The notes beneath the pieces were generated by a model. The model was given only the letters and a program-made list of their open reading frames with translations, was not told the DNA's origin and made no database searches. A DNA stretch of 62,064 bases, filler included, from Dugesia japonica (taxonomy: Eukaryota), in the NCBI GenBank assembly GCA_001938525.1. It is 6 parts of 6 records of this genome, joined end to end, with 100 filler letters (N's around TTAATTAATTAA, not from the genome) between each part and the next. Parts side by side here need not be neighbours in the genome. Positions count along the whole stretch, not along the records: positions 1 to 10,415 come from MQRL01589592.1; 5 more parts are not named here. One strand, given 5' to 3'. The position numbers and the translations under genes were made by a program. Of this stretch, positions 1 through 57,982 are shown piece by piece. Each line of letters starts with the position of its first letter. The first letter of the stretch is position 1.

Positions 1-53
<53 letters not shown>

Positions 54-70
54 TTAATAATAATAATAAT
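1..70. repeat. (TAA)n microsatellite
   Basis: Direct TAA run, degenerating to about position 150. Confidence 0.95.
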
Positions 71-1585
71 ACTGGTAATAATAGTGATAGTAATAATGAT
101 AATAGTGGTGGTAGTAATATATTAGTAATAATAATAGTAACGATAATGAGGATAATATTCTTAAATACGGGTAGAAATACTATTAATTGAGACCATAAGG
201 TTGATAATAATCGTGTACTAATTATAATAAGAATGGCACTACTAATTAATGTCAAGGGTGATAGTAGCCAATAGGAATATTAGTAAAAATAACTAAAAAT
301 AATAATAATAATAATAATATTAATGAAATAAGTTAAGAAAACATTTTACAAATGTTGAAATTGAAACTAATAAAATTTACAAATGATATAACCTACTATT
401 GTCTGATAACTGCGGCTGGTTCAATAAAAATTCTTCGATGGAATTAAGATTTGCTAGAAGTTTCAGGATATAATTGACCTCGACTTAGCTTTGAACGATT
501 GAAAATATCGCAAAGAATGAATGATTTGTCTTTATTACAATCTGCTTTATATAAGGTTTGATTGAACAGATTAGGCGGCTGTTGTGAATACCCGATAGAT
601 AATAGCCAGAGAGTTTCAAAATGTTGGGGTCAAAATCGTTTTTCCAAAGGACAATTGCTGCAAATGGCTTGGGACTATCTTCGTTCTTCTGTTGCTCGTA
701 TTCGGAAAACCGTTGTCTATAATTACCGCTAAAATTTCTGAATTTAATTGTTTGATGTTTTTGTTGAGAAGAATACGGCAATCCAATCGAGTAATTGAAG
801 TAATTATCAAAAAGGATTGGCTTCAAATTCGCCAATTGCCGCAATTATTTGAGAAATTGAAGTTTCTAGTCGACTAAATGTCGTAATTATTGAAAATTTG
901 GATTGAGTGTAATTATGGCTAGTTGATTCAATGAAATAGTTGAGATGGTTTTTTCTTTTTAGGAAATTTAAATATATCGCACAAATGTTTTTCTCAAAAT
1001 TAAAGGATAAATTTGTATAACGTTGCAGCCCCTTTTATAACTTTACTTCAGTCTTGATCAATTACCGATTGATGGATTAATGTGATTTAATTAGGTCATT
1101 TTTTGATATTTTGATTCTAGAATTTTTGAATTTATTTCTTTTTCCGATTAATTTCCCTTCATTTTCTAAAATATAATTGGTAATTTAAATTTTCCTTCTT
1201 TATCCGGAACATTTTGAGGGTTTTTGTTAGAAACTTGTAGAAATTTCCTTAATACTAACTTGATGTATTAAATAATAAATTATATTTTTTCGGTAACTTT
1301 TATTCATTAATCGGTTTCTCTTAGTTATTGATGATGATAAACGTAGGATGAGTAATCCAAATAGATTATACCGGAGCCCGTTCAGATTCGGCCCCTGATA
1401 CGATGTGAATAAATTTCCTTATGTTGGGATTTGGATTGAATTGCATTGATTTGAATTAACTTGGATCTTGAACGCAGTTATCAGATAAAAATAATAAAAA
1501 TGTACACTATTATTATTATAACTAGACATAAAGATTTCATAAATACAAGATAACTTAATGTTACATAGTTTTTTCAACGAAACTT

Positions 1586-2155
1586 TCAGACGAATGTTTC
1601 TTCATAGCCTAGATAGTAGCTACATAGGTCGACTGGGATTTGACAAATGGGTGGATTGGATTGATGCTGTTGGAGGAAGGCTTGATGGGTACTATCATGC
1701 AAATATTCTAAGTAACGTATTTCTTCTTTCTCTTCTAACTTCCTCTCGAATTCAGATTGTAGCTCTGTTCCTTTTTAAGTAAGCTCCTTCACTTCTGCTC
1801 GTAGTCTTTCGATATCCTTTTTTTTCTTTTCATCCCATTCTTTTGCAACTCGTAACTCCCTATTGCTTACGATATATTTCCTCAGATTTTTGGTTGCTCG
1901 TTGCATAATTTGCTGGGCCAATCTGGCATCCAATCTATCATTTTCTTTATTTGCTGCTATCAGCCTACTTTGTAGGTTCATTTCAGACCACATTTCTGAT
2001 ATTTGATGTTTCGCATTGGTTAATTTATCTGCATTTGATTTTAATCTGCTTAGTTTTCTATGAGCCGCCTTTAGCTTGGTTTAGTCTTCCACATTATCCT
2101 TTCTCTTGTCGGTAGTCACAACTTTGTTTTTATTGTAACCCCTGAGTAAAGACAT
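1586..2155 (-). pseudogene. Decayed 190-codon coiled-coil ORF of unknown family
   Basis: CAG|ATG at 2158-2153. One frame MSLLRGYNKNK...MWSEMNLQSRL...KGTELQSEFERKLEEKEE...EETFV* with two in-frame TAA (2083-2081, 1777-1775). Charged heptad-like composition. Confidence 0.55.
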
Positions 2156-4049
2156 CTGTTTACTAAACGATGAAAAGACAGAAATTAATCATAGTCCTAT
2201 CATTGCATATTTCTTTAGTACACTCTTGGGCCTTTTAATTTTCCTAGTGATCTCAATCATTTTCACATTCAAACATTCAGTTTATCCCATTTATACGTTA
2301 GATCATTATCTCTTTCATACAATTTTCTGCTATTTTTGCATTAGTGGGTTGTCAAATCAGCACTTATTTGATTTCATTCATAAGATTTCTTTTTAGTTCA
2401 GATTTCTTTTACAATCAGGTTTCATTTACTTTTAGTTATCAAATTGGATTCATTTTTTTATTTCATTGAAAGTTATTTTACTCATATATTTTATTTTATT
2501 ATATATTTTTTTGTTTGTTTCGTGCACTCCGACTTCAAATCATTAGAAGTAAGATTGATCATATTAGGTTGAGAGTTATTTTATTCATTTATCATTTTTA
2601 TGGCATTATCTTTTTTATCTGTACGTCTTAACTCCAAAATAAAACATAATTATATTTCATCGTATTACTTTAATCATATTTAAGATTACTTAGTCCAAAA
2701 AAATAAAATAAAAAGATTTAAAATTACTTCTTCCCTGTTTTGAGTTAGCTTATATCTCCGATAATGTTCAGATTTCTCCGATTCTCGAAATAATTTTTCC
2801 TTTTACCTGATTCTCGATATAATAATTATAATGATAATAATAATTTTGGGGTGAAACACCTGGTACGAAAAATAAAAACGGCGGTAGGTAAAGCCGAAAG
2901 TGAAAAGATAGTCACCAAATGGGGAAAGAAGGAATCCAGACAAACAAAAGTCACAATTCATGGAAGGAGAGAATAATTTAAAAAAAAAACTAAGGTTGGT
3001 TACAGCAAGAAACAACTCAGAAATAAGAAAGCCAAAAGGAAGAAAAGAAGTAATAGAAGCTATCAGCCAGATAAAGAAAATAATGAATAACAATTAGTTC
3101 ATTAGGCAAAACTAAGAAAACCATATTGAACAAAAATTGGAGAAAGAGAAAATTAATTAAAGGAATTAATTAATGAAAGAAAAACGAAATTAAGTTTAGA
3201 TCAGAAAAACAAAGAAATGAACATATAATTAAATTTATGAAGAAAATAAAATAATTTATTTAATAAAATAAATCATATGAATAAATCATATTTGTCAAAA
3301 ACAAGAAAAATGAAAGTTTCCGCTTGAGTTAAAATTGGCAGTTAAGAAAATTATGGATAAGAAAAAATCGGNNNNNNNNNNNNNNNNNNNNNNNNNNNNN
3401 NNNNNNNNNNNNNNNNNNNNNNNNNNNNNNNNNNNNNNNNNNNNNNNNNNNNNNNNNNNNNNNNNNNNNNNNNNNNNNNNNNNNNNNNNNNNNNNNNNNN
3501 NNNNNNNNNNNNNNNNNNNNNNNNNNNNNNNNNNNNNNNNNNNNNNNNNNNNNNNNNNNNNNNNNNNNNNNNNNNNNNNNNNNNNNNNNNNNNNNNNNNN
3601 NNNNNNNNNNNNNNNNNNNNNNNNNNNNNNNNNNNNNNNNNNNNNNNNNNNNNNTACTCGTCAACAAATTTAATACTGGATCGCAATTTATCGCAAGAAG
3701 TAATGATTGGTTTTTAAAAAATGTGTTATCCAACAGTTTCCGACCTCAAACCTTATGGAAAATTCATAAAGGTTAAAAAACCAATAATGTTGGGGTTCCA
3801 CCTGAGCTGATGATGGAGAGAAAAACTGGCCGTGGAAAAAACGGCCCCATCAAGAATTTAGATCTAATGTCCCCAAATTATATATTCAGTGTAGAGCGGT
3901 TGACCTTCAACTTCATGTGAGGTTCACACTCGTACACCTATGGTTTGGGTCCGTAGTTATTTCCCTATCATTTTAAAGTATCAAAAAATAAACACAGATT
4001 GCTAATAAATTGTATTGTTTCTATACTACATTTCATCTAGAGCTCCCGG

Positions 4050-4385
4050 GTCTANCCACGGGGTGGCTCTTCGGGTATGAAATCGAATACTAAATGGTCA
4101 TCCTCATCGTTCCTGTTGAGACACGATTCATTGCCTAATTGGTGGGACAGTTCGGCAATATACCGTTTCAAAAATTCGACCTTGTGTTGCAGGAGTTGTT
4201 TTGCCTGCTCGGCTATGTCGTTCTGCTTTTGACTATTACATCTAATTTCTTAATCAGCTTATTCCTTTGAGCCAAGTGTTTTAAAAGAGCACTCTCGGTT
4301 TGAAGTTTGAGATATCTTTCCACAAGTAATCTTTGGATGATTCGATGGCAACGACTTAACCTACTTGGAAGTCTGATGCGGGACA
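4050..4385 (-). pseudogene. Small unknown ORF with one frameshift (cassette gene D)
   Basis: TTTCAG|TG TCC CGC gives SRIRLPSRLSRCHRIIQRLLVERYLKLQTESALLKHLAQRNKLIKKL, then a frameshift to KQNDIAEQAKQLLQHKVEFLKRYIAELSHQLG...FIPEEPPRG. Confidence 0.45.
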
Positions 4386-4550
4386 CTGAAACAATGGGAA
4401 TATTAAGGAAAAATTATCATTATATTAGGCCTAAGGATGAATATCCAATATTTATCATTATAACAAAAATAAAAGAAGATTAGTAAACAGAGATAACTCT
4501 CGATACATGAACGATATTTATTTANGAAGATGGGATATTACAACCATAAT

Positions 4551-4912
4551 TAGTGACGCGCCGTTTGGGTACCTTTATCAATCATGAGAGGCTCCAAAGG
4601 CATTTTTTCTTTAAGGAGTAAGATGTCATTGACCAGTATATATATATTCTCGGTCATGGTCGGACCGGATCATTTCTGCGAAGGATTCAACCTGCGACTT
4701 TCAAACTCTCTCTTGAGCGTGCGAAGCCTCAATTTCCTTTCGAATGTGGACACATTTGGCCCGGTACCGCTTCACTTTGGCATTAGCGGTAGCTATCTCT
4801 GACTCAAATTGCCGTTTGGCTAATCGGTACAATGCCCAAGACATCTCAATGTCTTCACTGGATTCCCTTACTTTCTTCTTAGGGGCTGGGGGTTTATTTA
4901 ACGATGAGTGCA
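4551..4912 (-). pseudogene. Small unknown ORF, EMSWxLYRL family (cassette gene C)
   Basis: TTCCAG|TG CAC start; HSSLNKPPAPKKKVRESSEDIEMSWALYRLAKRQFE...; in-frame TGA at 4703-4701; frameshift in an (AT)n run; ends MIDKGTQTARH*; AATAAA downstream. Paralogue at about 8556-8758. Confidence 0.55.
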
Positions 4913-5096
4913 CTGGAATAAAGATATTATGACTATTAAAATACCTTCAAACTAAAACATTAAAATCCTCAAAAATTTCAACTCTTATTTGATTATTTTT
5001 AATAATACCCGTCAACAACAGATTTAAAAAGTACGTAACTAAGTTAATTTTTACACAGAATTTATTATCATTAATAAAACAAGAGTCTATTTGAAA

Positions 5097-5516
5097 CTAT
5101 GGATTTTCGTTGAGTAGATAAGGCGCATTATTTTCCGCCGACCCACCAATTGCACTATTCCGCAAGTCCCAAAGAGTGTTGCTTATCTCTCCACTCAATC
5201 TCATGCGGGGTGGCACGTGTGCGGCCGATATAGGAATAAATTCAGGCCCGTCACGCCACACGGTCGTAACCTGCCTGGTTTTCGGATCGGAGACGGTGAC
5301 GCGGTGCAAAACTTCGTGGGTCCGGTCGAGACCTCTTCATTTGTAAAAGGCCTGGCGTTCGGACGCAGCCCATTCTCTTTTATTTTCCGCGTCGAAGGAA
5401 GTCATGTTGGAGTAATCGGTAAGGACCCCCGCATTACGATCATGAGGATTCCAATACCGTTTAAAAGTTACCCTATTGGTTCGACGATCGAATAGCGTTT
5501 CCCAATAATATTCCAT
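5097..5516 (-). pseudogene. 139-codon unknown ORF, RxxFxRxWNP family (cassette gene A)
   Basis: ORF-track entries 5337-5534 and 5097-5309 share a frame, split by one TGA at 5339-5337. ATG at 5516 lies one base after acceptor TTTGTAG. AATAAA downstream. GC well above flanks. Confidence 0.6.
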
Positions 5517-7708
5517 TCTACAAATAATAAACAAAATTTTTGGTTTAATTTACGGTATTTACTTGGCTTCCTAATAAATATAGCAATCAAAGTACATTTT
5601 CCTCCATTTAAAACAAAATCAATTATCTATTTAGTTTACCCCTTTCTGATTTAAAGTTCAGCTAGCGAAAACAAAAAAAAATCAGTGACGTGGCTTATTA
5701 TTGGGTTTATTCTATTTCGTCAATAACATTGTAATCAGCGCATAGTAGGAGGGTTATTTTATCTATCGAATTAGTTGAAAATTAAATCACTTGCAAGAAA
5801 TCAATTCATTGAAAAAAATTGTCTAATAGAAAATATTTTTTCATTTGGGTTCAAATGATGATAAACATTACTGATGATAGTATTACTATTAATAAATGTT
5901 AATAGGAATCATATGTGCTTAGGATGAGGCAAGGAACATTTCACTTGTTGTAATAGTAATATTTATCGTAATAACACTGCTACCGGTACTAATAAATACC
6001 CGATTGTTGTCGTCGTTAAGGTTGATAAAGAAAAATTCACTTTTATGAACAACGACGTTGGAATAAGCTAGTGATAATTGGTATAGAAGGGTGAACTGTA
6101 TTGTTAATTTGTTCGAAATTAATTACGATTATATATCTAGTTCCTGTTTTAATTTACCGCTCTTGAGTGTTGCTTAGTTACCCAAACACAACTTCTATCA
6201 CGTACAACCTGCTGCATACATATCGACAATAATGATGCGATAATGCAAGTGGGCAAGAGAATTAGCCATGTGTGTATCGGTGACAGCATTTTGATACATG
6301 TCTTATTAGTGTATGACAGTCTGAGTAACGCCGATTTTGCTTGATATTGATGCATACATTCATTTCAAGGTTTAATGCAACACGACAGTCGCTAAACAGA
6401 CGGTTAAGCATACCTATGAAAATTTTATCTCGAAGATTGTGTTATCAAATTTACGACCGGTTTCTATATTCAGTTATTCATGGATGTAAAGGCAGGTATG
6501 GCACGATTTCCTCATTTTGCCGTCGCAATAAAGCAGAAAATTGGGTATGCATTGATCAGAACCAGCATGTCCATTTGAGGCTGAGATTTTTAGGCTACTG
6601 AATAATAGGGTCGTAACAAAGATTTTAGCGCGTAATATTTATGAAAATAATGACACATTCACTTTGAACATTTATTAGTTAACATCTATGAAATTATTTC
6701 GATAAAAAAAAATTTCTTATTAGAAAAATTATAAACTCGTTGCTTACTAATAGATTGGGCTATGATTCTGGCAACGGGTTGAACACTGACAAATTGGCAT
6801 TTCAGAATTGAGAATAATGGATTGATTTTGATTTGGTTCTCCTTTTAAATATAGTAATTAATCACAAATAATTTTCTTTTTNAGTTTACTTTGGTCTCGT
6901 GCTCGGTTTCCAATAACGATAGTTTACTTCTTTTATTTCTTTCTTTAAACTGATAATATAGCGTAATATGTCTTTCACTCTCGTAATTAAATCGAAGAAA
7001 AATGGTTGTTTTATAGAATAATTTTTTATGGACTTATGTAGCATACCAAATGCAACTCGATATCATTGCTATTGGTTGTCTAATTTTAATTAAAATTTCT
7101 TCGATTCTATTGGTGTAGCCTTGGATTTTTACAAATTTTTGACTATTTTCCGTTTCGCCATTGGCGTCTATTTTTGGAGTGACATGTGATTGTCATTCCT
7201 TTGTTTTATTTTTATTTTCAGATCTCTTATTGGCCCAATCTTCAAATNCCTGTGGAAACTTTCTGGATGGTGGTAAGATTTTCTTTCATCCAATTCTTCT
7301 CTGATTTTCTTACCAGAGGTCGCTGTGATTATGCAGAGTAGAGGTAATCACCGAAAACCAATTTTCGACCAATTTCAATTTATTTTTCTTTTAAATTAAT
7401 TAATTTTTCTACAATTAATAATTATTTACTGACATTAATTTCTTCTGCCGTTTATTATTATTTTGATAATTCCCTTTAATTATTGGCCTTGGTGTGAGCT
7501 AACTTATTTCACCCAAGATCTTCATACTCATCTTCTTTTTCTTTTGGCCTTTTATCATGTATTTTAGCATATTCTGTCCATGATTGATTATTCGTAGTTG
7601 ATTATTATAATATGACTACTGTTCTTCATGAGTTTTCTTTGCTAGTAGCCTTCCGCTTATGATTTGGGCCCTTGGCATTGCTTTCTTTTTAATCGGGTGT
7701 TTCACCCC

Positions 7709-7763
<55 letters not shown>

Positions 7764-7813
7764 NNNNNNNNNNNNNNNNNNNNNNNNNNNNNNNNNNNNN
7801 NNNNNNNNNNNNN

Positions 7814-7866
<53 letters not shown>

Positions 7867-7870
7867 TTAA
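7709..7870. repeat. (TAA)n microsatellite spanning a gap
   Basis: Direct repeat either side of an N run. Confidence 0.95.
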
Positions 7871-8555
7871 TAATATTAAGGACAATATAATATGAGGGAG
7901 ATTAATATTAATCACGAGTAGCACTAATAATTGAAATTCTACTATGTATTAATAGTACGAAATTTACGTGTAATATTGGATCACACGTTGATGTAGGTAA
8001 TTCTGAGCGTTAATTAACAGACCAGCATCTAGATGAGCATGGTATAATTACCTAATTACTCCGTCGGCGTGTTGGGTGCGGAACTTTACTTAATAATAGT
8101 GCCGATAGAAACTGAAATCTCTTTTGATAGCTTTAACATTAACAACCATAGCACATATAAACCCAAGGTGGAATAATAATAATGTGGCTTGTTAACTTCC
8201 TGATTTTTTTCCCTGACGATTTCTGAGCGTTCTGAGCAAATTTATTTCCTTTTTTCAGATATTCTTCCTTATTAATTCCCTTTTGTCAGATTAATTAATT
8301 AATTTTCTTTATTAATCTCAATTTTTTTTTGATATTTTAAATAATTTAATTATAATTTATGATTTCTCTTAATTGTGGGGGCCTAACTGCTATCTTCCTT
8401 AATATCTTTTATTATTTTCTTGTTATTTTCTGTTTTTCTTTTATATTCTTCTTATTTCCTAATAATTTACTTCCCTTTTCTTGAATTAAATTTGTTATTA
8501 ATTGTTGACTGACCAGTTGCCGACGGGGCCACGTGATATTATTTCTTCACTTTGA

Positions 8556-8758
8556 TTATGATTTTTTCTTATAGCTTTTATACTTGGCCTTTTCTGTAGC
8601 ATTCTGAGTCTCCCAGTTTCTTTTTGAGAGCCGGTATAATTCCCAGGACATCTCCTGGTCATCACTATCTTTGGAAATTCATTGAGACGCTTACGTGTGA
8701 GATTTGAAGAAAATTTAGCTCGGTTGTTATTCATTGTCAATGATTTATTTATTTCATA
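8556..8758 (-). pseudogene. Paralogue of cassette gene C
   Basis: A frame not shown in the ORF track reads DSDDQEMSWELYRLSKRNWETQNATEKAKYKSYKKK, matching SSEDIEMSWALYRLAKRQFESEIATANAKVKRYRAK. Acceptor TTTCAG ends at 8759. Confidence 0.6.
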
Positions 8759-8908
8759 CTGAAATACTATTTAGAGTGAAATATTAGGTTAAAAATATTT
8801 CCATTTAAGCGACAATCATTAGGAGTGTTTAATTAAGACACAACTTCTAAATTAGGAATGACAGCTTTTTTTCTAATTGGTGCTCTTAGCCAGTAGTTAT
8901 ATTCATAC

Positions 8909-9078
8909 CTTTTTAAACGGTCTACACATCATTGGAAGACGCGGTTCTTGGGGGGAGGAAATTCTGGTGGTCCACCAGGATGCCAACGTCCCAGCGGAAC
9001 GGGTTCTATACCCTTTGAAAAACGATACGTCCATTCATGAGCGAGTAAAGAAACCATCTGTAATCTCGATTGATTTTG
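8909..9078 (-). pseudogene. Paralogue of cassette gene A
   Basis: KINRDYRWFLYSLMNGRIVFQRV*NPFRWDVGILVDHQN aligns with EYYWETLFDRRTNRVTFKRYWNPHDRNAGVLTDYSN. Acceptor TTTTAG ends at 9079, donor GTATGA at 8908. Confidence 0.55.
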
Positions 9079-10166
9079 CTAAAATTAACAATACGTGAGT
9101 CATAAAAATGATGAGAGTAGCCACATGATAATAAGCATAGCCATAATCACAACTTTAATGATGAAAATAAGAATTGTACGATATCAAAACGAAAATTAGA
9201 GCAGGAGTGGAAGTAATAGTATTAATAATAATAATGATGAATATGATGACAGTAATAATAATACTAATGGTCGCTATATTGATTTTAATAGTATTAATAA
9301 AAAATGAGTAATAATTATATCAATAATGACGACAAAGATGATACTAATAAGATTAATAAATAATAATATTGGTTATCAAAATAATGATAATAATAATAAT
9401 GATCTTAGTCAGGGGGAGGCTCTATATATAATGCCGCTTATGATGTTTATGAGAACACAAAATCAATCCAGTTCTCTGACCAACGAAGAGTCTAATAAAT
9501 ATTCATAATCGCAGTCATAAGCCGTCTAGTGGATTATTTAGTAATTTTAACCACAGTAGTCTCACATCCCCAGTAGGCATGCAAATAAACCTAATTTAAG
9601 TTAAAAAATATATTCGATTAAATTAAAATTAATGGTTTATAATAATTACTGTAAATGTGCAAAAGTGGTAAAACAAAGTCTCCTATTCTAACTTACTTCT
9701 GCTTTTATAGCAGATTCTGCTGCTTTTGTGTCCCTCTATTCCTCTCTGCGAGTGAATCGTTTTAAGATTTTCCATTTATGATTCACTCGTGGACTTTTGG
9801 AGCTTTCTTAATGGCTCTCCGAGCATCATCTTATTTAATTATTGCTTGGGTTTTCTACAATAATTTTAAAGGTCTCAGCCGGTTATTCAGCAGTCTTATT
9901 TATTTTCTGAGTCGACTGACTCTTGTAATTAACAAGTATATATGATTAATATTTTAATATTAATACTTATAGCTTGTAAATTTCATTCTTTATAATTCTT
10001 GTCAACTTTATACTTCGAATAATTCTTAAAATTTATACAAGGTTGAACAATTTTTTTAACTATTTTAACAATTTTTTAAGTGGAATTTTATGTATTTATT
10101 TTTTATAAAAACTTAAGGATAATAATTTTGATGAGATAATAAATGAAATGAAAAAATTGTATGATT

Positions 10167-10331
10167 TAATAAATATTTAGTCTGCGCAGCAGGCTTGATT
10201 AAACTTAATCTAGGAATAAGATGTAAGTGTGCCATCTCCAATATGATTTCACAATGGATATGGCACATTAACATCTAAATATTAATATTTGAGATTTAAC
10301 AAAGCCTGTCCACAGGCTAATTATTTATTAT
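10167..10331. repeat. About 165-bp imperfect palindrome (foldback/MITE-like)
   Basis: agatgtaagtgtgccatctcca pairs with tggatatggcacattaacatct; caggcttgattaaa with tttaacaaagcctg; outer arms also complementary. Confidence 0.75.
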
Positions 10332-10415
10332 AAAAGATAGCAAGAATGAATAAATTTGGTCAAACGAAAAAAAAATTAAATTCAAAAGAAATATTAAAAA
10401 AAGTTGATGCTAAAC

Positions 10416-10515
10416 NNNNNNNNNNNNNNNNNNNNNNNNNNNNNNNNNNNNNNNNNNNNTTAATTAATTAANNNNNNNNNNNNNNNNNNNNNNNNNNNNN
10501 NNNNNNNNNNNNNNN
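10416..10515. other. Assembly spacer N44-TTAATTAATTAA-N44 (12-mer also at 23157-23168, 34539-34550, 43155-43166, 52819-52830)
   Basis: Identical six-frame-stop 12-mer centred in 100-nt gaps five times. Confidence 0.95.
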
Positions 10516-14226: not shown

Positions 14227-15240
14227 TAAAAAAATGTCCCAAAGATGATTAATATGTGTTAAATAATATAAAATATGACATGTATTGAATAAGTAACAGT
14301 TCCATTAGAATTCTCTATCGTTTTGTGGAGCTGAGTCTAGTAAATTATTGACGATAATGACTGATTGTTTTTAAACAATTGAACTGGTGTTCAATTTATG
14401 TCCGGATGTGAATGGATAGTATAGTAGATGCACATACAGAGATGCACATACTATAAATCGAGCTTTGCTAGTTAAAACTACGCGAGCTGGTCGATAAGTT
14501 CAATTATGAAAGGAAACGATCATGTGCTATCTGACCTTAATGGATTCATTCTGCTGGACTGTTGTATGACGGAGGAGGTAATGTTATGGAAGGAAAACAA
14601 GACTTTTACTGTAGCAATACATGAAAATAATTAATAATTATTAATAATTTATTGATTTAAAAAAAAACTTAATAAAAATTTATTAAATGATTTATTTCAT
14701 ATTTTAAAGCTCATAAACCTTAAAAATATACTTGAAACTGATTTTTTGCAATACAAAAGCTGCATTCATGCAACACAATCATTTTAGCGCAAAGTTACCT
14801 TTGACAACCTATAGACCAATTTTTATAGCAAANNNNNNNNNNNNNNNNNNNNNNNNNNNNNNNNNNNNNNNNNNNNNNNNNNNNNNNNNNNNNNNNNNNN
14901 AAAAAAATACATTTTCACACACACAAGCACCGTCACATAATATACTAAACCTTTTCACAATCACTTGTTCCCAGTGTTCCTCTTTCAATCAAAGCAAAAA
15001 TCATTCAAATCCATCAAAAAATCGCTACATTGGAACCTATTAACTGAAATCCGAAAACATGTTACTGTAACCAACAGGAACATCAATAATTATCAATCTG
15101 GATGGGGGAAGGGGATGAAGCAAAATTGACCAATCAAAATGATGAGGTCATGCTTACCAATCTACCTACTGTAGTGATAATTTGTTCATAAGTGACTACA
15201 ACTTGTGCATAGATGTCAGTAAATTACCCTAAAGAATGAC

Positions 15241-22655: not shown

Positions 22656-23344
22656 CTATAAAAATTCATTATAAATGAAGGATTATTCAAATTCAATACA
22701 TCTTTGATTTAATATTTCTAACCATAACATATAACTAGATTTTTCAGATTTACTCATTGAACTTAAAACTAAAGTCTTTGGTTTTACAAAAACAATTCTT
22801 TAAAAATTATACAAAATCTTAGGAACAAGTAATGATTAGATGAATTTCTAAAATTGTACAATGTTATACTATTTTTATCAGAATGACATTATTAGATTAT
22901 TAATAGTAATATTGAAAATTAATAAAAAGAATTAAAATTTGACTTGATTAATTAAACAGTATATTGAAAAGAAATTCTGAATAAATAATTATAATTACAT
23001 AATAATGAAATATTTAAGTTAATTTTAATTTAAGAAAATTTTAAAACGTTGAAAGTTAATTAGTGATCAGCTATTAACTATAGAGACAGTATCAACATGA
23101 TTTTTAAATAATNNNNNNNNNNNNNNNNNNNNNNNNNNNNNNNNNNNNNNNNNNNNTTAATTAATTAANNNNNNNNNNNNNNNNNNNNNNNNNNNNNNNN
23201 NNNNNNNNNNNNCAGCTAAATATGTTTAATTCTGAAAACGAAAATCTATAATTAATTAAGACTCAACTGACTGATAAAATCAAAATTCATTGAAACTGAT
23301 GTTAAACGGAAATCTAATAAATTAATGATAAGTAGGATTTAAAT

Positions 23345-24655: not shown

Positions 24656-27600
24656 CTAAATTACATGATTTAAATTAGTACATAAACTCTTCAAATCAAT
24701 ATGTCTCAGTTTAATAAATCCATCTGCGCTACAGTTTATTATTTTATTGTCACCAATAATATCTAAACTTTTGACAGCAAGATCACCTTTACTAAAAACT
24801 GAAGATTTAATCGGTTCACTTCGAAAGGTTTCAAAAAGTTCTTGATTATGTAATTGCCAAATCTTCAACAAATAAAATATAAATAAATTCATTTTAAAAT
24901 TTACTTTTATATGACCATCAGCGGCCGAGGATACAAAATAATATTGCAATGGGTCCAATTTTATTGCAGTTATACAAGAGTCATGGGCTTGAAAGATATT
25001 TTGGATTTTGTTTTGCCTAATATCAATTAATGCAATTTCTCCTTTTCTCGTACCTGCTAGAATTAACTCATAGCGTGATACATAACACAATGCAACAACT
25101 CCAATTGCTAATTGTGGATCAGATAAATCTAAATAAATTATAAAACGAATCAGAATGGAACAACAAATTACTTCGAACTTGATTTCTTCCTGAAGGTAAT
25201 AAAACGTCCCACATTGAAATATTTACAGAATTTGTATCAAAATTCCCACTACCAACTGCATGTAATTGATTAACTGAAGATAACCCGTGCAATGTTGAAC
25301 CTCCGGCGGTTGCAACTAATGAGGAAGAATTTATAAAACAGAAGTCCAAAACTCCTTTATGTGGACATCGAGTTTGCTACAATAATAAAGTAACATATGC
25401 ATACATAACTTGATTTCTTACAAAATATTGAGCCCGAGAATTATCAGCATATGAAAAATGAAATAATGAAAAATTTCCTTCTGAGTCACCCATTCCAAAC
25501 TAAATTAATAAATTCAAAATAATATTTTATTATATTACGAACTACACGTTTCATTACGCCGAGTTAAACATAAGCTGTCTTACAAACCTAGAAAATCCTC
25601 TCCAAGACACTGAGTACTTGGATTGGCCAGCAAATAGCTGTAAAAGAACATAAAAGGAAAAATAAGAAAATAGTATGTATGACCTATCTTCATTTAAGGG
25701 GACACTCTAAAAATAGCTATTCACAATAATGTTCAAATCATCCAACTCACTCTACGTGTTGATTCACTTATTACCAGGTTTTGTACCTTCACTGAATATA
25801 GTTATGTAAGGTACCTCGGTTGGCTTCAATGCCAGTTGCGGGATAACAATGGAGCGCTTCGTAGCAAACTGAGAAGATATGTTGTTACACCTTGCTTAAG
25901 GCTAGAAACTCACAAAGTACTATCAAGCACGTAAGCTATCAAACACCAAGGCAGATATCAAAAACCAAGTAAGTTTTCATATTTTACAGAAATTACTTAA
26001 GGAGTTTTGGGGTTCTATGAAAAAGAAAAAATACCATAATAGTAAGATAAAAATATATTTACAGAGAAAAATGGTGATCATTACATTACACAAAATTAAG
26101 GTTGATGGAAAAATATTCAATCCATTCAACATAAATATTCTTGTTTCTCCATANTCTTCCTTTAACAAAATACTTCTTTAGATCATGGATGCTCAACCCG
26201 CAGTAACACGTTTTAGATTTACATATTTTGAAGTGTGGAAAGTTATTAATTATACCTTGTCAATTAATTAAATAAAAATAATACTTTATTTCCATTCGCA
26301 TCAAAATTTAAAGAAGTAATTTTTCCTTTTTGTATAGGTGAGTAAGTTTTAACAACAGCTGCATCAATAGACCATTCAAAAACACCAACTTGGCCATTAG
26401 TGTTTCCAGTTATATCTTAAATAAATTAAATTTTTTATAATTTATAAAAAAAACTTACAGTAAGGTAACAATGGGTGAGATTTTATAATTTGTATACCGT
26501 GTATTGGTCTCTTGAGAATCTAAATTTTAATTAAAACACAAATGATGAAAGACAAAATATTTCAGTAGAAACGAATTAATAAAATAGAACTGTATATATT
26601 ATAAAAGTTCAAATTGTTAAAAATCCTTCAATATAAAAATACACGATAGCTTCAATAAATTTATTGTACATGCTTCAATAAATTGTTAAAATTACAAATG
26701 CTAATATACAAGGTGGTCTATAAGTAACCGAACAATAATTATTATGTAATAAACAACACCGATTATCGACTACTCGTCACTCTTAATATAAAACTTGGGC
26801 TACAAACGATGTACATTTTAATTGGAAGAACATGATCATGCTAAAAATTATTATTTGTCACTTTTAACAATAAATAGGGTTCGAATACTTCTGGACGACT
26901 TTCTCATATTTTGAATGCTATATTAGACATAGTGAAAATATTGAATTGTTTCAAAAGCCTTCACAGAGTCGTTCAAAACATGTATAGGTTGGTTTGAACT
27001 TTGAAGCCTGACATTTAGCTGATTAAGATGCATCATCATATTCGACAAAGAAAGGAGGACTTTTAGCAAGGAGGGAGGTTAGTAGTTGCCATGGTAACTG
27101 TGACTTAATATTTACTTGATTGTTTTGTAGCTATTACAAAATCATTATGTAATCACTGGTAGTCATCGCGTAATACATTTTATATTACGCAGCCATTACA
27201 TAATAGTTCCACAATCATTCGAAAACCATATCCAGATTACACAATTATTACAAAATCATTCGGGAGCGGGTTTCTGGTAACGCGATAGTTATGTAATAAT
27301 TACGAAATAATAGCTCTTGTGGTTACCATGGAAGCTTATGAAATCCATTGCAAAAAGTAATGTTTGTAAAAGCATTTCTTTTCCTCGAACTTTGTCATGT
27401 TACACATCATTCGACACAGAATTTACGCCGATCAAGAATATCAAGTTAAAATCGTTGGAACGTACACACAACAAATTAAATGAGAAATAAAAATGATTCT
27501 TCAGCAAACAAGTACATACAATGCGAATACACAGTTAAGTGACTGATGACTGCACTTTGTGCCCTCACAGAGGATTAAAGTGTGTATTTTGCGGAACGTT

Positions 27601-31534: not shown

Positions 31535-33256
31535 TAGAGTTTCTTCTCGAGAAATTTTCAATTTAAAAATTCTCATTTCTCGAGAAATTTTAACTCAGGA
31601 AATCGCGAAATTTGAGAAAGTCAGAAAACAAAATTTTCTTGAAATATTTCTAATATTCTAATGAGTTACAGTGCTTTCCAATATAATTTTAAATTTTTCT
31701 TAGCCCACGAACTATAAAGAGGCTTATTATAATGAATAATTTTTAAAATTTGTATCATATTAGTCTTTACAATTTTACCCTATATATAANNNNNNNNNNN
31801 NNNNNNNNNNNNNNNNNNNNNNNNNNNNNNNNNNNNNNNNNNNNNNNNNNNNNNNNNNNNNNNNNNNNNNNNNNNNNNNNNNNNNNNNNNNNNNNNNNNN
31901 NNNNNNNNNNNNNNNNNNGTAGTTGCTGTAACAAGTGATGGCTCAGTGGTAATGGAGAAATTCGGAAAATTATCTCCTTCCATTCAACAACTGTGTTATA
32001 ATCATGTAATCCATCTTGCGATTATAAAAGTTTTTTATACTAGAAAAGCCAACATTGAATCATGTTCTAACGATGAAGATTATGATAAAATTGAAAGTGA
32101 TTCTATATACGATAGTGAAGAAGATGTCGTTGAGTCAGATGCAGAACTAGTTTTAGCAAAAAATGTTCGTGAAACCATTAATGCTGTCCGGAAAATTGAA
32201 AGATTATTATTCAAAAACTCACCAGTGAGAAATTCTATTCTTCATAAAAGAAGTTGTTGTTGTTGAAATAAGAGAACTGCAGTTAATTCTCGATTGTAAG
32301 ACTCGCTGGAATAGCTTAATAAATAAGGTTGTCCGATTTATGAAGCTTGAAGAACCTATCATTAAAGCCTTAAATGAAATAAACTGTATTTCTGGGAAAA
32401 AGAATATACAAAAGTTTGTAAAGAAATTGTAAATGTGTTGGAATTAGTTAAGTTTGCTTTGGAGGAGCTCAGCAAAAAATTTAATGCAAATCTATTGATC
32501 AGCGAAGGTATACTTAATTTTTTGTTTAATAATTTAAAAAATCAAAATAGAAACATGACCAATGAGTATTTAGATGAATTGAAAGCTTATATATTTAAAC
32601 ATTGTAACATACCACTAGTTTCACTAATAAAGTTCTTAAGCAATCCAAAATTAACTCAAGAAAATGATGATTTTTTTTAAATCATCAAATAAATCAGAAA
32701 TGTTAAAACTAGCAAAATTACTAATGATAAGACTTTTTAGTAATCAAATTAACGATGGTGTTGATAACGTTGAATTAGAATTTATACCTCAAGTGGAGAC
32801 TGGAAATGCTATTGTAAAAACTTTAAATGACCAATTACAAAGTTCAATATCCATGTATACAGACACGATAAATCCTCACGAAACTAGTGAAGCATTTTGC
32901 TCATTGACAAAAGAATTTAACATTTACGAATGTACTGGAAATATTACTCAAAATTTGCAACAATTATTTGATGCACTACTAACAATAAGATCTACCTCAA
33001 CACCAAATAAACGTAATTTTTCAACTTCTGGAACGTTTATTACGAAACTTCAAACTCGGTTATCAGATATTATGTTTTTATATATATAAAAATATATGTT
33101 TTTTGAAATATCATTAAGAAAAAAAATATTTAAAAATATTCAAACAAATTGACTTGTATTTATTTTCGGGAATAATTACGAAATTCTCGAGAATTAAAAT
33201 ACTTCAAGAAATTAGAAGTATTAGTATTAGAAGTAAAAGTATTAGAAGAAACCCTA
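31535..33256 (+). mobile_element. hAT DNA transposon with frameshifted transposase
   Basis: TIRs TAGAGTTTCTTCT and AGAAGAAACCCTA; 8-bp TSD TCTGGGAG (31527-31534, 33257-33264). Motifs VTSDG, CYNHVIHL, LDCKTRWNSL, TSTPNKRNFSTSG (hAT dimerisation-like). Confidence 0.93.
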
Positions 33257-34914
33257 TCTGGGAGAACATTTGAATTTAAATAATTTTATATATATTATAT
33301 AGGATTATATTAAAATTAATTCTTGAAATATTTTTAAAAATTAATTAGAATATATAATTTAAAAAAAGTATTAGAGATTTTTCAGATATAAAATTTTTTG
33401 TCAAAAGTTTTGAAAATTTGATTTGGTTATATATATATAGTATATAAAAATTATTTTATTTTATCTTATATTATCTTTAAAATTATAGTAGAAATATTTT
33501 TTGAAATATTTATAGTAACAAAAATATTACTGATTTTTTAAAATATTAAAAATTATTTTGAAAGATTATTGAAATGTATATTATTACAAAATAACAATGT
33601 CACCAAACTTTTTAATGTCTGAAACACTTATGTTTATACATTTATATATATTTCAAATCATGCTATTAAATAAAATAGAAAATTCGTTACTTATATTATT
33701 TATAATATAATATTAATTATTAATGATAGATGAATTAATTTTCTTACTTAATAGTTTAATTGTTTTACATATAAAGTTAAATAAAAAGTAGTCATTGTGC
33801 TCCTTATATATCGGCATTAGAGAAGACAATTCATTAATACAATTTAAATAAGTATTGAAGCTGCTCTTGTTGAGAGCTTTTTCTATTTGTAGCAGCAGGT
33901 TAATTTTATCTTGAGAGTTTTTAGTTAACATGATGTTAAGTAAACTATATACAAAAGATATATTTAATTAAAATTTCTAAGCGTGTTCTCGAATTTAAGG
34001 GTAGAACTGAAAAATGAAAAATCTTTTATTATCATCTTTACATTTAATAACTATATCTACAAACGTAGTCATGGGTTAAAGATATATTGATTTAACTTAA
34101 AAATATTTTTAACTTTAATAAAACAATTTTGATAGTGAATAAAAATTATGGATAATTGTGAAGTTCTCGATTTAACTAATATCTCATTCGAAATATAGTA
34201 AAATTAGAATATCTTGATTTTATAAAAAAAATAAATTATAATAAAAATATAGATAGAATTTTTGAAAATATTACGGTCCTTCAGAATTTAAGTAAAAATA
34301 CAAATGCAGTAAAACTATTTACTAATTTTGAATTAGGGCATATGTTTGAATGGTGACCAGTCAAAATAGCCTCATCAAAAATTTCATTAATATATTATTT
34401 CATGATATTATATTTTATACTAAAGCTTTATTATATTTTATTTTATTATATCAAATTTTATTAATAATTTTATTAATATATATAAATATATTATNNNNNN
34501 NNNNNNNNNNNNNNNNNNNNNNNNNNNNNNNNNNNNNNTTAATTAATTAANNNNNNNNNNNNNNNNNNNNNNNNNNNNNNNNNNNNNNNNNNNNATTGTT
34601 AAATACAAAACTTTGTTGCATCTTCATCATATTGCCATTCGATTAAAAATAACAAATACATGCATTTGTTTACATATTTTTATTGATTTATTTTGTGTTA
34701 CGACAACATTTATTAAATTAAAAACATGAATGATTTTAGTATAAGTGCACAGTAAAAATATTTACCAATACATAAAAATGCTGTTACTCATTGGGAACTA
34801 ATGTACCGGTTCATTTACACGAATTGCACTTCATATGATAATCAATAAATACGCTATTAATGAATTTCATTAAATAAATTATTTATTAAATATATTATTA
34901 TTATTAATACTATC

Positions 34915-51816: not shown

Positions 51817-53229
51817 GTAAGCTTTTATTGAGTTGATTCTTTAGTTGTCAAACTGAAAACATATTTTACTTATTATGGTAACAATTTATTTTACAGAAGT
51901 CATAAAACAATTAAATCGATTTGTTTATTTCTTTTGGTGACAAGTTCTTCGCTTTGTCGAGATTAATTTTGATATCCATTAAATTGGACGTATTTAACGT
52001 TTCCTTTGAAAATTCAAATGATTTCTAAAGAATTACAAATAGACAAATTGATTTCTGTTTTCGTCTAAGAATTGATAATTAATCTCTAAAAAATATTATA
52101 ATTATTAAAAAATAATAATTTTTTTAAATATATCTAAAGAAATTTGTTCAACGGTAGTCTTGAAATTTTGACGGATCGCTTCTCACATGGATAATTGTAT
52201 GTTGCGTGTTCTAGATTCAGCAAACCAAGCAATCTTTATATCTACACAAATAATAGAACAACAAAACATATTGAATATCCACAAGCATTGTAAAATTAAA
52301 TATATTAGAAACATATTCATTCTCTTTTCATTTCTGTTTCATTCAACCAAACTGAGTCACAGCAACGCGTGGCCGAGTATAGCTAGTTATTAATGTAAAA
52401 TATTGATTAAAATAATTTTTAATTGTTTTTGAAATGAAATTGTTTTTATAAGACTTCTGGTTTTGTCTTCTGATTTTCTGGGAAACAATGTTTATTTTTT
52501 TAAAAATATTATTTAATTCAATTTAAAGGATTTGTTCTTGCAAACAGAAAATAACCCATTAATTTTTAACATTACAAAGTATTCAATATCAAACAAACAT
52601 TTATTGATTTATAAAACCAGACGATTTCCTAACTGTATATTAGCAAAATCCAACTAAGTAATGCTTACTATTAAGTAAAACTTGATGAAAAAACGCAAGA
52701 AAAACAGCTTTTACAATGGAGAATGAATAATACGTTTCCACTAGAATGCCGTTAAAATTTGCGACTGCACCAAGNNNNNNNNNNNNNNNNNNNNNNNNNN
52801 NNNNNNNNNNNNNNNNNNTTAATTAATTAANNNNNNNNNNNNNNNNNNNNNNNNNNNNNNNNNNNNNNNNNNNNTATCTGTAATATATTTTTCACTTATA
52901 AATTCTGTTGTTTTTTAATAATTAATCTCATAACTATTAAAATCATAATTAATTAAGGTTAACCAGATTAATAAACACTCCATAAACCGGAAATTTATAA
53001 GCTAATAATAAATATGTCTGGTAAGTCGAGCAAATGTCACGGAAGATAAAACCGAACCAAAGAGATACGAGTCTGCACTCGAATTCCGAGTCAACGACTC
53101 AATCCAAATATCTGGATTTTTTGNGACATCAGATTAAATTCTTCGCGGGGTTTTACTATGCCAACCACCCTAGACTTAATTATAAAAAATCGACTCACCT
53201 AAAAAAACCCCCAACAGTACTTTAAAAAG

Positions 53230-53538: not shown

Positions 53539-54165
53539 TTAAATTTCTATTTTATTAATAGATTGATTATATTTAGAAATTATGATCGATAAATTATTTT
53601 GACGTTCAAATTCTGCAATGAGTTTCTTTAACATCTTCATCTCATCATATATTGATTCATTTAGAAAACTGTTAATTTTTTTAGGCCTCCGTCGAATATC
53701 TTTAATTAAATCGTAATTAAGCACCACGAAGATGCTATATATGAAACGTTTGTTGTCCTTATTATGAACATTAACTATAGCCTTTAATTGATTTATTACT
53801 GTAGAACTCTGAATGGATGATTGAGCAGATAGATAAATTACTGGGACATATTTCGTCAAAATAAATCGTAGCTCTAATATTCTTTCAAGCTTCTATTCAC
53901 TTCTTAGTTCTGAATATATTGAAATCTCAGCATTTGCTTTTTCTGTTATTTTATCCATAAATCATCTGAGTCTTACATAACCTTGTGTGACCACGACTAT
54001 TCTTTAATTTCTTCCTCACCATCATTCTTTTCAAATTCTACACGGATTCCAAATTGCACCATACAATGTTTGAATTTCTTGACCTCATCTTCAACCGGAT
54101 TTCTTGCATTTTCTGGAATTTGAACCGATTTTAATTCGAAATTCTTTACCTTAAATTGGAGACTG
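53539..54165 (-). pseudogene. Polinton-type pPolB N-terminal remnant
   Basis: LERILELRFILTKYVP...KAIVNVHNKDNKRFIYSIF...IAEFERQNNLSI parallels 60939-61469 (VNVQNKDKYCFIYSVL...IPKFEKLN). Confidence 0.7.
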
Positions 54166-56449: not shown

Positions 56450-57770
56450 CACATGATAAGATATTCATAATTGAAAAGAATTGATTAAATCTTAATATTG
56501 AACTTAATCACTTTCTATTGGCTAAAATTATTAAATAATAATTATTTCTTTATAAACTCCTTCTTAAGAAACTTCTAAGTTTTCCACATTTCTTTCTAAT
56601 CGCTGTCCATTTTCTCCTTGTAATACATACAAGTTTTCGTGAATTTTCTCAATTATTCGATGAGGTCCTTCAAATCTGTCTTTAATTTTATTTCTTGTTT
56701 CTACCTTGATGAGTTTAAAATTGCCCCCTTTGAATTATCTGTTAATAATGACGTCTGAAGTGTTTTCTTTAGTTCTATCTGAAACATCTAACTCATACAA
56801 CGTTTCTCTCATAATTTTCTTTTCAAATACGATCTTAGCTGAGCTCTTTCCAGTCGTCTTCTGCTTTTTTGCGTTCATTGTAAATTCTATTTTCGATAAA
56901 AGATCTGCTCAGTCTGTTATCTTTCTTTCCTGAAGTGCTGCATTAATTAAATTTTGAATTGTTCTGAACTGTCTTTCAATTTGTCTGTGCATTATAATGA
57001 TAGGGACTCGAAAAGCAAAGTTTAATATCTAGCTTCAGTGCAAACTCTCCAATAACTGTCTATTCAAAAGCTTTTCCACAATCTAGTTTTATCTCTCTTG
57101 CTCATTCAAATCTCAATATCCACTTTTCTAAAATAGCTCTTTGTATTGTTGAATTGTCTTGTCTAGGCAATGGTATAAGAACCAGATATTTACTGTACTG
57201 GTCAATTATTTCAATAATGTATTTTTTCGTCCTTTTGTTTCCCCCATTGGTCTACATATATCTGTGAAAATGACTTCAAACCAATTGGTTAATATTGTCA
57301 TTACTTTGGTCTTCTGACAAATTTCGCAACTACTAACTATCTTCTGTATTTGGCTCCGCAAATTCTTCACAATGTATTTGTTTCTCATATATTCGTACAC
57401 CTTTTTAGCTCCTGCGTGAAATAATAATTTATGTATTTCTTCTATTGTTTCATGTATTTTGACATACGAAATTTTTATTTTCTTGATTAAATCTGTTTCC
57501 TCAGAAAAGTTTAAATGCTCTTCTTTTTCCTTTGCATCTACGTTCAGTATTCTCGTTTTAATCTTCCCTTTCTTGGCATCTTTATGTGATATTTGACATT
57601 TTACACATACTTCAAATCTTGGTCTAGATAACATATCTGCATTACCATGTTGAATTCCTTTTCTATATTCCAAAACCATGTCTAGACTACTCAGATAATT
57701 AATCCATGTCTGGAATTCTGACGTAGTTGGTTTCTTCGTCGTCATCATAAAAGTTAGAGCTTCGTGATCC
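56450..57770 (-). mobile_element. Ty3/Gypsy RNase H-integrase remnant with PPT and LTR start
   Basis: DHEALTFM, YRKGIQHGNADMLSR, IHKLLFHAG...CEICQK, FEVIFTDIC, KDRFEGPHRI (GPY/F), PPT aagaaggag. Confidence 0.9.
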
Positions 57771-57982
57771 AGCCCCAAAGACCTGCAATCACTTCTGAAC
57801 CAAATATTCATGGGGATAAGGTCAAGTGTAATTATAAATTTCAAGCTGCTACCACCTAGTGAAACAATAACCACGAATGTGGATTGTGCTCTTTTTGGAG
57901 AGATTAAAAGATGAAATTGAAAAAAAGTGGCCAGCTTTAACAAACAGAAATGGAGTCATTATTCATTAGGATAAAGCATGGC
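57771..57982 (+). mobile_element. mariner transposase fragment
   Basis: KLLPPSETITTNVDCALLERLKDEIEKKWPALTNRNGVIIH*DKA; compare mariner ELLP.G.TI...YC.QL.RL...I..KRP.L.NRKGV.FHQDNARP. Confidence 0.85.

What the first reader, a model, noticed from the sequence alone, without database searches (positions are those of the whole stretch)
4050..9080. Duplicated cassette of unrecognised small genes: two paralogue pairs in conserved order
Seen: gene A (5516-5097; EYYWETLFDRRTNRVTFKRYWNPHDRNAGVLTDYSN) has a diverged counterpart at 9078-8909 (DYRWFLYSLMNGRIVFQRV*NPFRWDVGILVDHQN). The next gene C (4912-4551; EDIEMSWALYRLAKRQFESEIATANAKVKRY) has a counterpart at 8758-8556 (DDQEMSWELYRLSKRNWETQNATEKAKYKSY). 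A weaker third match links gene D (TESALLKHLAQRNKLIKKL) to about 8260-8190 (KEINLLRTLRNRQ/KIRKL). All are on the same strand and in the same order, offset by 3.6-3.9 kb. The paralogue frames are absent from the ORF track. Clear peptide-level similarity suggests past protein-level selection. I recognise neither family. Inference: a gene module of an undescribed large mobile element or endogenous virus. Polinton accessory genes and Terminon-like co-oriented coiled-coil ORF arrays are comparators, but no replicase or integrase is visible here.
Basis: partly seen in the sequence, partly recalled or inferred. Interest (0 to 1): 0.85.

Follow-up and report, generated by a model that had tools for sequence, protein, structure and literature searches.

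The report
Leader-spliced gene row in giant LTR
A decayed, many-copy piece of mobile DNA in an AT-rich animal genome carries a row of small genes of unnamed families, each beginning at a predicted splice site, and another sequenced copy lacks exactly the intron between a short leader and the first gene, so one promoter likely served the whole row, probably from inside a giant retrotransposon terminal repeat.

Summary
Two of the three claimed paralogue pairs are real (C/C', A/A'); D/D' is chance. The genes belong to a dispersed, diverged repeat family, are broken here and gave no full-length poly(A) reads in two runs. New: A, C, D, A' and C' each start at a strong minus-strand splice acceptor (ranks 3, 1, 4, 20, 13 of 509), and one contig of a probable DNA run joins 6748 to 5517, removing a 1,230-nt GT-AG intron exactly. 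The leader ends in A; C and D start with TG, so splicing would build their start codons. A and C end in their own stop and AATAAA. A, C, D lie in a 4,863-bp unit with TG...CA ends and a perfect 14-nt inverted repeat; A' and C' lie outside it. Best reading: a gene-bearing solo LTR of a planarian-type giant Gypsy element (Burro/GLT kind) set into or beside a diverged relative. Only the leader-to-A splice was seen; no gag, polymerase or integrase is linked, the scaffold is 10 kb, and the arms resemble a LINE fragment, which is unexplained. Only one outside homologue (94 aa, metagenome) was found.

The parts
2847..7709 (.). 4,863-bp unit (287 N inside) with TG...CA ends, set in a (TAA)n tract; candidate solo LTR
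   Evidence: all 30 bins of 3655-7700 are covered by diverged contigs
2847..2860 (+). left 14-nt terminal inverted repeat
   Evidence: 2 exact matches in the window, inverted; 3 of 300 local shuffles give a pair of 14 nt or more
7696..7709 (-). right 14-nt terminal inverted repeat
6844..6853 (-). TATA-like word 105 nt upstream of the leader donor (promoter inferred)
   Evidence: one of 12 such words on this strand of 1-10415, so weak alone
6748..6825 (-). short leader exon ending in A at a GTAAG donor (3' end shown by the joint; 5' end inferred)
   Evidence: tables 5 and 5c, resolved; one of 6 GTAAG donors on this strand
5518..6747 (-). 1,230-nt GT-AG intron, absent from one contig of run X3; holds an unassigned GC-richer block H (about 6100-6600)
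5097..5517 (-). gene A: acceptor at 5517, ATG at 5516, 139 codons, one in-frame stop at codon 60, own stop, AATAAA at 5066; beta-hairpin plus helix family
   Evidence: homologue P0005, E 6e-9, 27 of 58 identical
4550..4912 (-). gene C: exon starts TG, basic N-terminal patch, conserved EMSWxLYRLxKR helix; broken by a stop near 4703 and a frame break near 4640; stop at the GC boundary, AATAAA at 4522
4052..4385 (-). gene D: exon starts TG, coiled-coil-like, acidic tail; frame break near 4245
   Evidence: heptad periodicity 6 of 1000 shuffles for the second piece, 46 of 1000 for the first
8909..9078 (-). A': diverged relative of A, acceptor at 9078, three stops, ends at a top-scoring donor (8908)
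8500..8758 (-). C': diverged relative of C, acceptor at 8758, frame break near 8685
1575..2162 (-). gene E, outside the unit: acceptor at 2162 (rank 36 of 509), ATG 7 nt on, long coiled coil; possibly the outer element's counterpart of D (weak)
   Evidence: 0 of 1000 shuffles for periodicity; D vs E 20 of 1000; long helices, mean pLDDT 83
2861..3371 (+). left arm, A-rich, similar to 42941-42648 on another scaffold; nature unresolved
   Evidence: score 131, 0 of 100 local shuffles
6860..7695 (-). right arm, A-rich, similar to 43055-42830; holds the highest read depth of the laid stretch (7165-7299); nature unresolved
   Evidence: score 104, 0 of 100 local shuffles

Best explanation
A, C and D are the broken exons of one likely transcription unit of a many-copy mobile element: a short leader ending at 6748 is joined to A in a sequenced copy and would be spliced in turn to C or D, and the unit probably lies inside a giant solo LTR of a Gypsy-type retrotransposon. 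Shown: multi-copy family, strong acceptors at every block start, the exact leader-to-A joint, TG...CA ends with a 14-nt inverted repeat. Inferred: a promoter near 6853; leader-to-C and leader-to-D splices, where the leader's last A and the exons' first TG give the start codon; choice of acceptor and poly(A) site giving several small proteins from one promoter; reverse transcription of spliced element RNA giving the intron-less copy; accessory (host-facing, probably nuclear and oligomeric) roles for the proteins, from the basic patch of C and the coiled coils of D and E. A' and C' (with E) would be the same unit of an older, diverged family member into or beside which the unit inserted at a TAA tract.
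For: Run X3: 2,089 contigs laid on 3655-7700, 141/370/725/853 at 99+/95-99/90-95/under 90% alike, depth in 30 of 30 bins. Joint 5517 to 6758 with nine 'between' letters equal to window 6748-6756, so the skipped part is CT..AC, a GT-AG intron on the minus strand; such ends arise in 0.25% of random cuts; 1 of the 15 listed joints (5 more not shown) has them. Acceptor ranks 1, 3, 4, 13, 20 of 509; 3 of 3 GC change points found without a splice model have a site scoring 4.5 or more within 20 nt, against 2% of random windows and 0 of 5 matched AT-to-GC edges on the other strand. AG|TG occurs at 25 of 509 AG sites but at both C and D. GC boundaries fall at the stops of A (5092-5136) and C (4552). 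TG...CA unit. Burro elements exceed 30 kb with internal parts up to 25 kb and carry accessory ORFs (PMC6431247 section 7). The published probe of the planarian transposon GLT2, read by eye, has the same build: AT-rich spacer, acceptor, exon starting TG, 80 open codons of coiled-coil type (PMC8532177 Table S1).
Against: The splice rests on one contig with 30 letters on its shorter side, in a run whose DNA status is the tool's guess; no joint to C or D was listed. The acceptor score is hand-made and was written after I had seen the C and D sites (the A and A' sites emerged from it). A' ends at the best donor of the scaffold, which suits a fused A'-C' gene better than separate ORFs. No clean target duplication (left AATTT, right ATAAT, in a microsatellite). 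No gag, RT or integrase on the scaffold. Both arms match the 5' part of an R2/NeSL-like LINE fragment on another scaffold, which an LTR does not explain. My by-hand BLOSUM62 sums for GLT2 against E and D (about 25-30) are at chance level, so that link is architecture only. The organism is inferred from composition and repeat content, not tested. Two poly(A) runs gave only partial reads (166 of 166, 122 of 122).
Confidence: 0.45

Rival explanations
1. Same leader-spliced gene row, but on a DNA element: a non-autonomous inverted-repeat element with integrase-type ends (Ginger-like) or a piece of a Polinton-like virus using adenovirus-style late splicing; the intron-less copy was made in trans by a LINE.
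For: Both arms resemble one third sequence in the inward direction, as long decayed inverted repeats would; leader-to-many-acceptor splicing is the adenovirus pattern (established knowledge); Polinton-like fragments occur in this genome (60.0-61.9 kb, recognised from memory, not named by Pfam).
Against: The arms do not match each other beyond shuffles (171 of 300 local shuffles); no PolB, integrase, ATPase, protease or capsid on the scaffold; 4.9 kb against 15-25 kb for Polintons; the Polinton-like fragments are on an unlinked scaffold.
Confidence: 0.25
2. A, C and D are consecutive exons of one spliced transposon gene of about 345 codons, and A'-C' is its diverged paralogue.
For: A' ends at the top donor (rank 1 of 396, tied at the top score); a phase-compatible donor exists in A at 5146 (rank 31) and in C at 4572 (rank 83), and C and D both start in phase 1.
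Against: The GC-rich part of A runs past 5146 to its stop, A and C have stop plus AATAAA at their GC boundaries; other contigs stay alike to 5118-5125, inside the would-be intron; A has its own ATG at the same place as P0005's first residue. The two models can coexist as alternative splicing.
Confidence: 0.17
3. The ends are not element ends: two head-to-head fragments of an R2/NeSL-type LINE bracket an orphan transcription unit of unknown origin.
For: Arms match 43055-42650, which runs into a CCHC plus restriction-like endonuclease frame whose top 2 of 6 PDB hits are R2 proteins (E 0.19, 0.24); NeSL-clade LINEs are known in planarians (PMC4640811).
Against: Both would lack their 3' ends and start at the same 14-nt TG word; RT identity of the arms was not shown (searches found nothing; the parts further in do not beat shuffles).
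Confidence: 0.1
4. Decayed copies of an ordinary host gene family.
For: Spliceosomal signals and protein-level constraint.
Against: Over two thousand diverged contigs, stops and frame breaks, no full-length poly(A) read in two runs, no named homologue.
Confidence: 0.03

Closest known systems
Burro / GYPSM1 giant Gypsy LTR retrotransposons of dugesiid planarians (PMC6431247, section 7 read; Grohme 2018 and Lee 2026 not held)
   Same: AT-rich animal host with thousands of decayed copies; multi-kilobase LTRs follow from the sizes given; accessory ORFs and coiled-coil (Smc-like) motifs; TG...CA ends fit an LTR.
   Different: No gag, pol, env, BIR, BCL2 or MATH domain here; the passages read place the accessory content in the internal region and do not mention spliced ORFs in the LTR; no sequence comparison was possible.
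GLT2 planarian transposon (probe in PMC8532177 Table S1, first 400 of 485 nt seen)
   Same: By eye: AT-rich spacer, acceptor, exon starting TG, open coiled-coil-type frame.
   Different: No significant sequence match shown; the paper passages read do not give its class or structure; GLT2 is transcribed on loss of SMEDWI-2, expression of this element is not shown.
LTR-encoded accessory genes of complex retroviruses (MMTV sag, foamy virus tas/bet with internal promoter, HIV nef; recalled)
   Same: Small regulatory ORFs in or next to U3, made from spliced RNAs, in part from an internal promoter.
   Different: Those are one or two ORFs; here at least three with separate stops and a predicted split start codon; no homology.
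Adenovirus major late unit and Polintons/Mavericks (PMC6431247 passages; adenovirus splicing recalled)
   Same: One leader spliced to several acceptors with separate poly(A) sites; rows of small ORFs.
   Different: No Polinton core gene or size; an intron-less copy in a probable DNA run suggests reverse transcription.
Terminons of bdelloid rotifers (PMC6431247 passages)
   Same: Co-oriented coiled-coil ORFs.
   Different: No hammerhead, no telomeric repeat, no linked Penelope-type RT shown.

Membership tests
Gypsy/Burro-type LTR | TG...CA termini with a short inverted repeat | tested here: met
   14-nt perfect inverted repeat, 3 of 300 shuffles
Gypsy/Burro-type LTR | 4-6 bp target site duplication | tested here: inconclusive
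   flanks AATTT and ATAAT inside a TAA tract
Gypsy/Burro-type LTR | occurs as a direct pair around gag-pol with primer site and polypurine tract | not testable with these tools
   no genome held; scaffold ends at 10415; both flanks here are microsatellite, as for a solo LTR
Gypsy/Burro-type LTR | sequence similarity to Burro, GYPSM1 or GLT terminal repeats | not testable with these tools
   no repeat library; the terminal word is absent from the visible probe text of PMC8532177 Table S1
Gypsy/Burro-type LTR | passes through an RNA intermediate | tested here: inconclusive
   one exactly intron-less contig in a run guessed to be DNA
Polinton/Maverick | protein-primed PolB, integrase, ATPase, protease, capsid genes | tested here: not met
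   no such Pfam family in 18 read-through frames covering 60-10415; holds for this 10-kb scaffold only
Polinton/Maverick | 15-25 kb between terminal inverted repeats | tested here: not met
   bounded unit is 4,863 bp; size range
Terminon | hammerhead ribozyme motifs | tested here: not met
   Rfam to E 5 on 1-10415: 2 chance snoRNA hits only
Terminon | telomeric repeats at junctions | tested here: not met
   0 matches to two TTAGGG units with 1 mismatch
Terminon | co-oriented coiled-coil ORFs | tested here: met
   D and E
R2/NeSL-type LINE (arms only) | RT followed by CCHC and restriction-like endonuclease | tested here: inconclusive
   arms match the fragment at 43055-42650 but no RT hit and no endonuclease frame on this scaffold
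Host gene | low copy, intact, expressed | tested here: not met

The most novel reading that the evidence does not exclude
Giant planarian-type LTRs are themselves small genomes: each holds an internal promoter and an adenovirus-like leader that is spliced to a row of acceptors, completes split start codons and yields several proteins of unnamed, anciently diverged families, so that every solo LTR scatters a complete accessory-gene unit through the host genome.
Probability: 0.3. Interest if true: 0.82.

Novelty: new variant of a known kind. Interest (0 to 1): 0.6.

Why it matters
Giant planarian retroelements are abundant, held down by piRNAs in a tissue-specific way (PMC8532177 passages) and, for Burro1, reported to help stem cells survive (cited in PMC13465017; the paper itself was not held). 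Their multi-kilobase terminal repeats are usually treated as regulatory DNA. If they carry a spliced multi-gene unit, solo LTRs would be protein-coding, their genes would be missed by ORF finders (two lack a contiguous ATG), and gene families A and C, conserved across saturated synonymous divergence and, for A, in an unrelated metagenome contig, become testable candidates for element-host interaction. If the carrier is a DNA element instead, the leader-splicing design is still undescribed in the papers I could search.

Tried and rejected
No named relatives: word-indexed protein searches for A, C and the A alignment (near lengths only, so fused forms were not searched); full HMMER scan with a 620-residue frame covering A and most of C gave 1 hit, P0005, an unnamed singleton on a 512-bp ENA contig, and none for C; D, E, A' and C' were not in that query. 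Pfam (only coiled-coil noise such as Mod_r), PHROGs, phage tblastn, viral contigs, metagenome contigs, prokaryote genomes (its one locus L001 is the antisense of a flavoprotein-type ORF), ESM Atlas for C and P0005 (blank shows nothing), PDB sequences (best E 0.077). AlphaFold of P0005 was poor (pLDDT 49; three strands then two helices) and found nothing in BFVD or PDB; a WW-like look of the first hairpin is recalled, not tested. No RNA holder was listed. High-depth zones do not fold better than shuffles (z -0.9 to 0.1, 6 of 6). Long direct similarity of the two arms: not significant. No matching ends or leader were found for the outer element. A BEN-like reading of 880-460 got no Pfam support. 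Flatworm spliced-leader AUG (recalled) would put C and D out of frame, so I rejected it. Ten paper searches found no description of these genes or of this splicing design; Grohme 2018, Arkhipova 2017, Lee 2026 and Repbase entries were not available and may already cover them.
Full report
Setting. The window is AT-rich and holds animal-type genes and Gypsy, hAT and LINE debris; I take it for a planarian-like genome from composition and repeat content only. Five gaps of 100 bases carry the linker TTAATTAATTAA (10460, 23157, 34539, 43155, 52819), so the window is a string of unlinked scaffolds and the finding lies on a piece that ends at 10415.

Observation. C/C' and A/A' beat residue shuffles (0 of 500 each) and real background blocks (0 of 72 each); A/A' does so narrowly (58 against a maximum of 57). 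They are the top 2 of 105 pairs in a frameshift-aware comparison. Synonymous sites are near saturation while replacement sites are not (pS/pN 0.80/0.33 and 1.03/0.47). D/D' is chance. A has one outside homologue among 1.84 billion proteins, P0005 (E 6e-9, 27 of 58 identical, unnamed, one 512-bp contig), sharing nine invariant residues with A and A'. Nothing names either family (see Tried and rejected).

Copy number and expression. On 3655-7700, run X3 (guessed DNA) laid 2,089 contigs, most under 95% alike, with depth in 30 of 30 bins (40 to 6,474 summed; listed single contigs 5-16); the tool warns that this is no copy number, but it shows a dispersed, diverged family. Two poly(A) runs, about a quarter read, gave only partial matches (166 of 166 and 122 of 122 reads), none 95% alike or better. 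Only 4 of the 24 listed runs were laid, and A', C' and E were outside the stretch laid.

Splice anatomy. The genes are GC-richer blocks between spacers of about 22% GC. With a simple hand-made score, the AG sites at the starts of C (4912), A (5517), D (4385), C' (8758) and A' (9078) rank 1, 3, 4, 13 and 20 of 509 on the minus strand; E (2162) ranks 36. GC change points found without a splice model have a site of 4.5 or more within 20 nt in 3 of 3 cases, against 2% of random windows and 0 of 5 matched edges on the other strand. The score was written after I had seen the C and D sites. Independent support came from the lay: one X3 contig (depth 16.8, 30 letters on the shorter side) jumps from 5517 to 6758 with nine letters between that equal window 6748-6756; the true joint is therefore 5517|6748 with one base unaccounted for, and the skipped 1,230 nt are a GT-AG intron from a GTAAG donor to A's acceptor. 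Such ends arise in 0.25% of random cuts; 1 of 15 listed joints has them. The leader ends in A. A's exon brings its own ATG one base in; C and D have no ATG near their starts but begin with TG (25 of 509 AG sites do), in the open frame. A and C end in a stop at their GC boundary followed by AATAAA 31 and about 27 nt on. A TATA-like word lies 105 nt above the donor. I infer one promoter, one leader and a choice of acceptor and poly(A) site. Against this, A' ends at a top-scoring donor and usable donors exist in A and C, so fused A-C-D products are possible, and no joint to C or D was listed.

Ends. An exact 14-nt inverted repeat at 2847-2860 and 7696-7709 gives TG...CA ends to a 4,863-bp unit set in a (TAA)n tract (3 of 300 shuffles). 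It holds the leader, A, C and D; A', C' (right) and E (left) are outside. A clean target duplication is not seen. TG...CA ends, the size, microsatellite on both sides and an intron-less copy in a probable DNA run fit a solo LTR whose U3 intron was lost from spliced element RNA. Burro elements exceed 30 kb with up to 25 kb internal sequence and carry accessory ORFs (PMC6431247, section 7 read whole). The visible 400 nt of the GLT2 probe (PMC8532177 Table S1), read by eye, show the same build; my by-hand similarity sums to D and E are at chance level. Unexplained: both arms match 43055-42650 on another scaffold (0 of 100 local shuffles each), which continues into an R2/NeSL-like endonuclease frame, yet the arms do not match each other beyond shuffles and no RT hit was obtained.

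Proteins. E is predicted as long helices and E and D show heptad periodicity; C does not (628 of 1000) but has a basic N-terminal patch that looks like a nuclear signal (recalled). P0005 folds poorly. An accessory, host-facing role is inference from position and from the Burro precedent.

Verdict. The leader-spliced architecture is fairly well supported (about 0.75); the carrier is less sure (giant LTR 0.45 overall, DNA element 0.25, single gene 0.17, LINE-bracketed orphan 0.10, host gene 0.03). Papers seen: PMC6431247 (section 7 and passages), PMC8532177 (passages, table rows), PMC10954484 (one passage, table rows), PMC11410931, PMC13238120, PMC5035012, PMC4640811, PMC10175614, PMC13465017, PMC10558129 (passages). 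Ten searches found no account of these genes, but the key Burro papers, their supplements and Repbase were not available, so the element itself may be catalogued.

Noticed in passing
window 10416-10515, 23113-23212, 34495-34594, 43111-43210, 52775-52874: 100-base gaps with a TTAATTAATTAA linker: unlinked scaffolds joined artificially; neighbourhood across them means nothing.
   Followed up: yes
window 41300-43110, minus: Decayed R2/NeSL-like LINE fragment with CCHC and restriction-like endonuclease frame (41984-41613); its first 460 bp resemble both arms of the unit.
   Followed up: partly
window 6748-6800, minus: An ATG in the leader opens 17 Cys-rich codons; splicing to A would close them with a stop directly before A's ATG.
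   Followed up: no
window 3790-3924, 4600-4734, 7165-7299: Read depth ten to a hundred times that of the rest of the unit in run X3; no unusual RNA fold in the pieces tested; probably parts shared with a larger family.
   Followed up: partly
window 6100-6600: GC-richer block H inside the leader intron with its own possible splice sites (6413, 6391, 6157); strand and frame unresolved.
   Followed up: no
window 330-1300, minus: By eye the decayed 3' end of a CR1/L2-type LINE ending at a TAA tract; no tool support.
   Followed up: no
window 9697-9950, minus: Decayed purine-rich block F ending at a GTAAGT donor (9696) with an A before it; possible upstream exon for A' or C'.
   Followed up: partly
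window 5200-5340, minus: Gene A holds a second hairpin-like repeat (D-x-x-T-x-x-V-T) that P0005 lacks.
   Followed up: no
window 15090-15115: A purine tract of 17 nt identical to a stretch of the published GLT2 probe (by eye), followed by TG; perhaps a polypurine tract and LTR start on another scaffold.
   Followed up: no
window 60034-61850 and 53542-53892: Frames that look like Polinton polymerase N-terminal parts (recalled; Pfam gave no name).
   Followed up: no
window 43763-47865, 57209-57955, 31919-33086, 24659-25222: Gypsy gag/RT/integrase fragments, a hAT fragment and a WD40 host-gene exon on other scaffolds.
   Followed up: no
window 10219-10276: 28-nt hairpin near the scaffold end.
   Followed up: no
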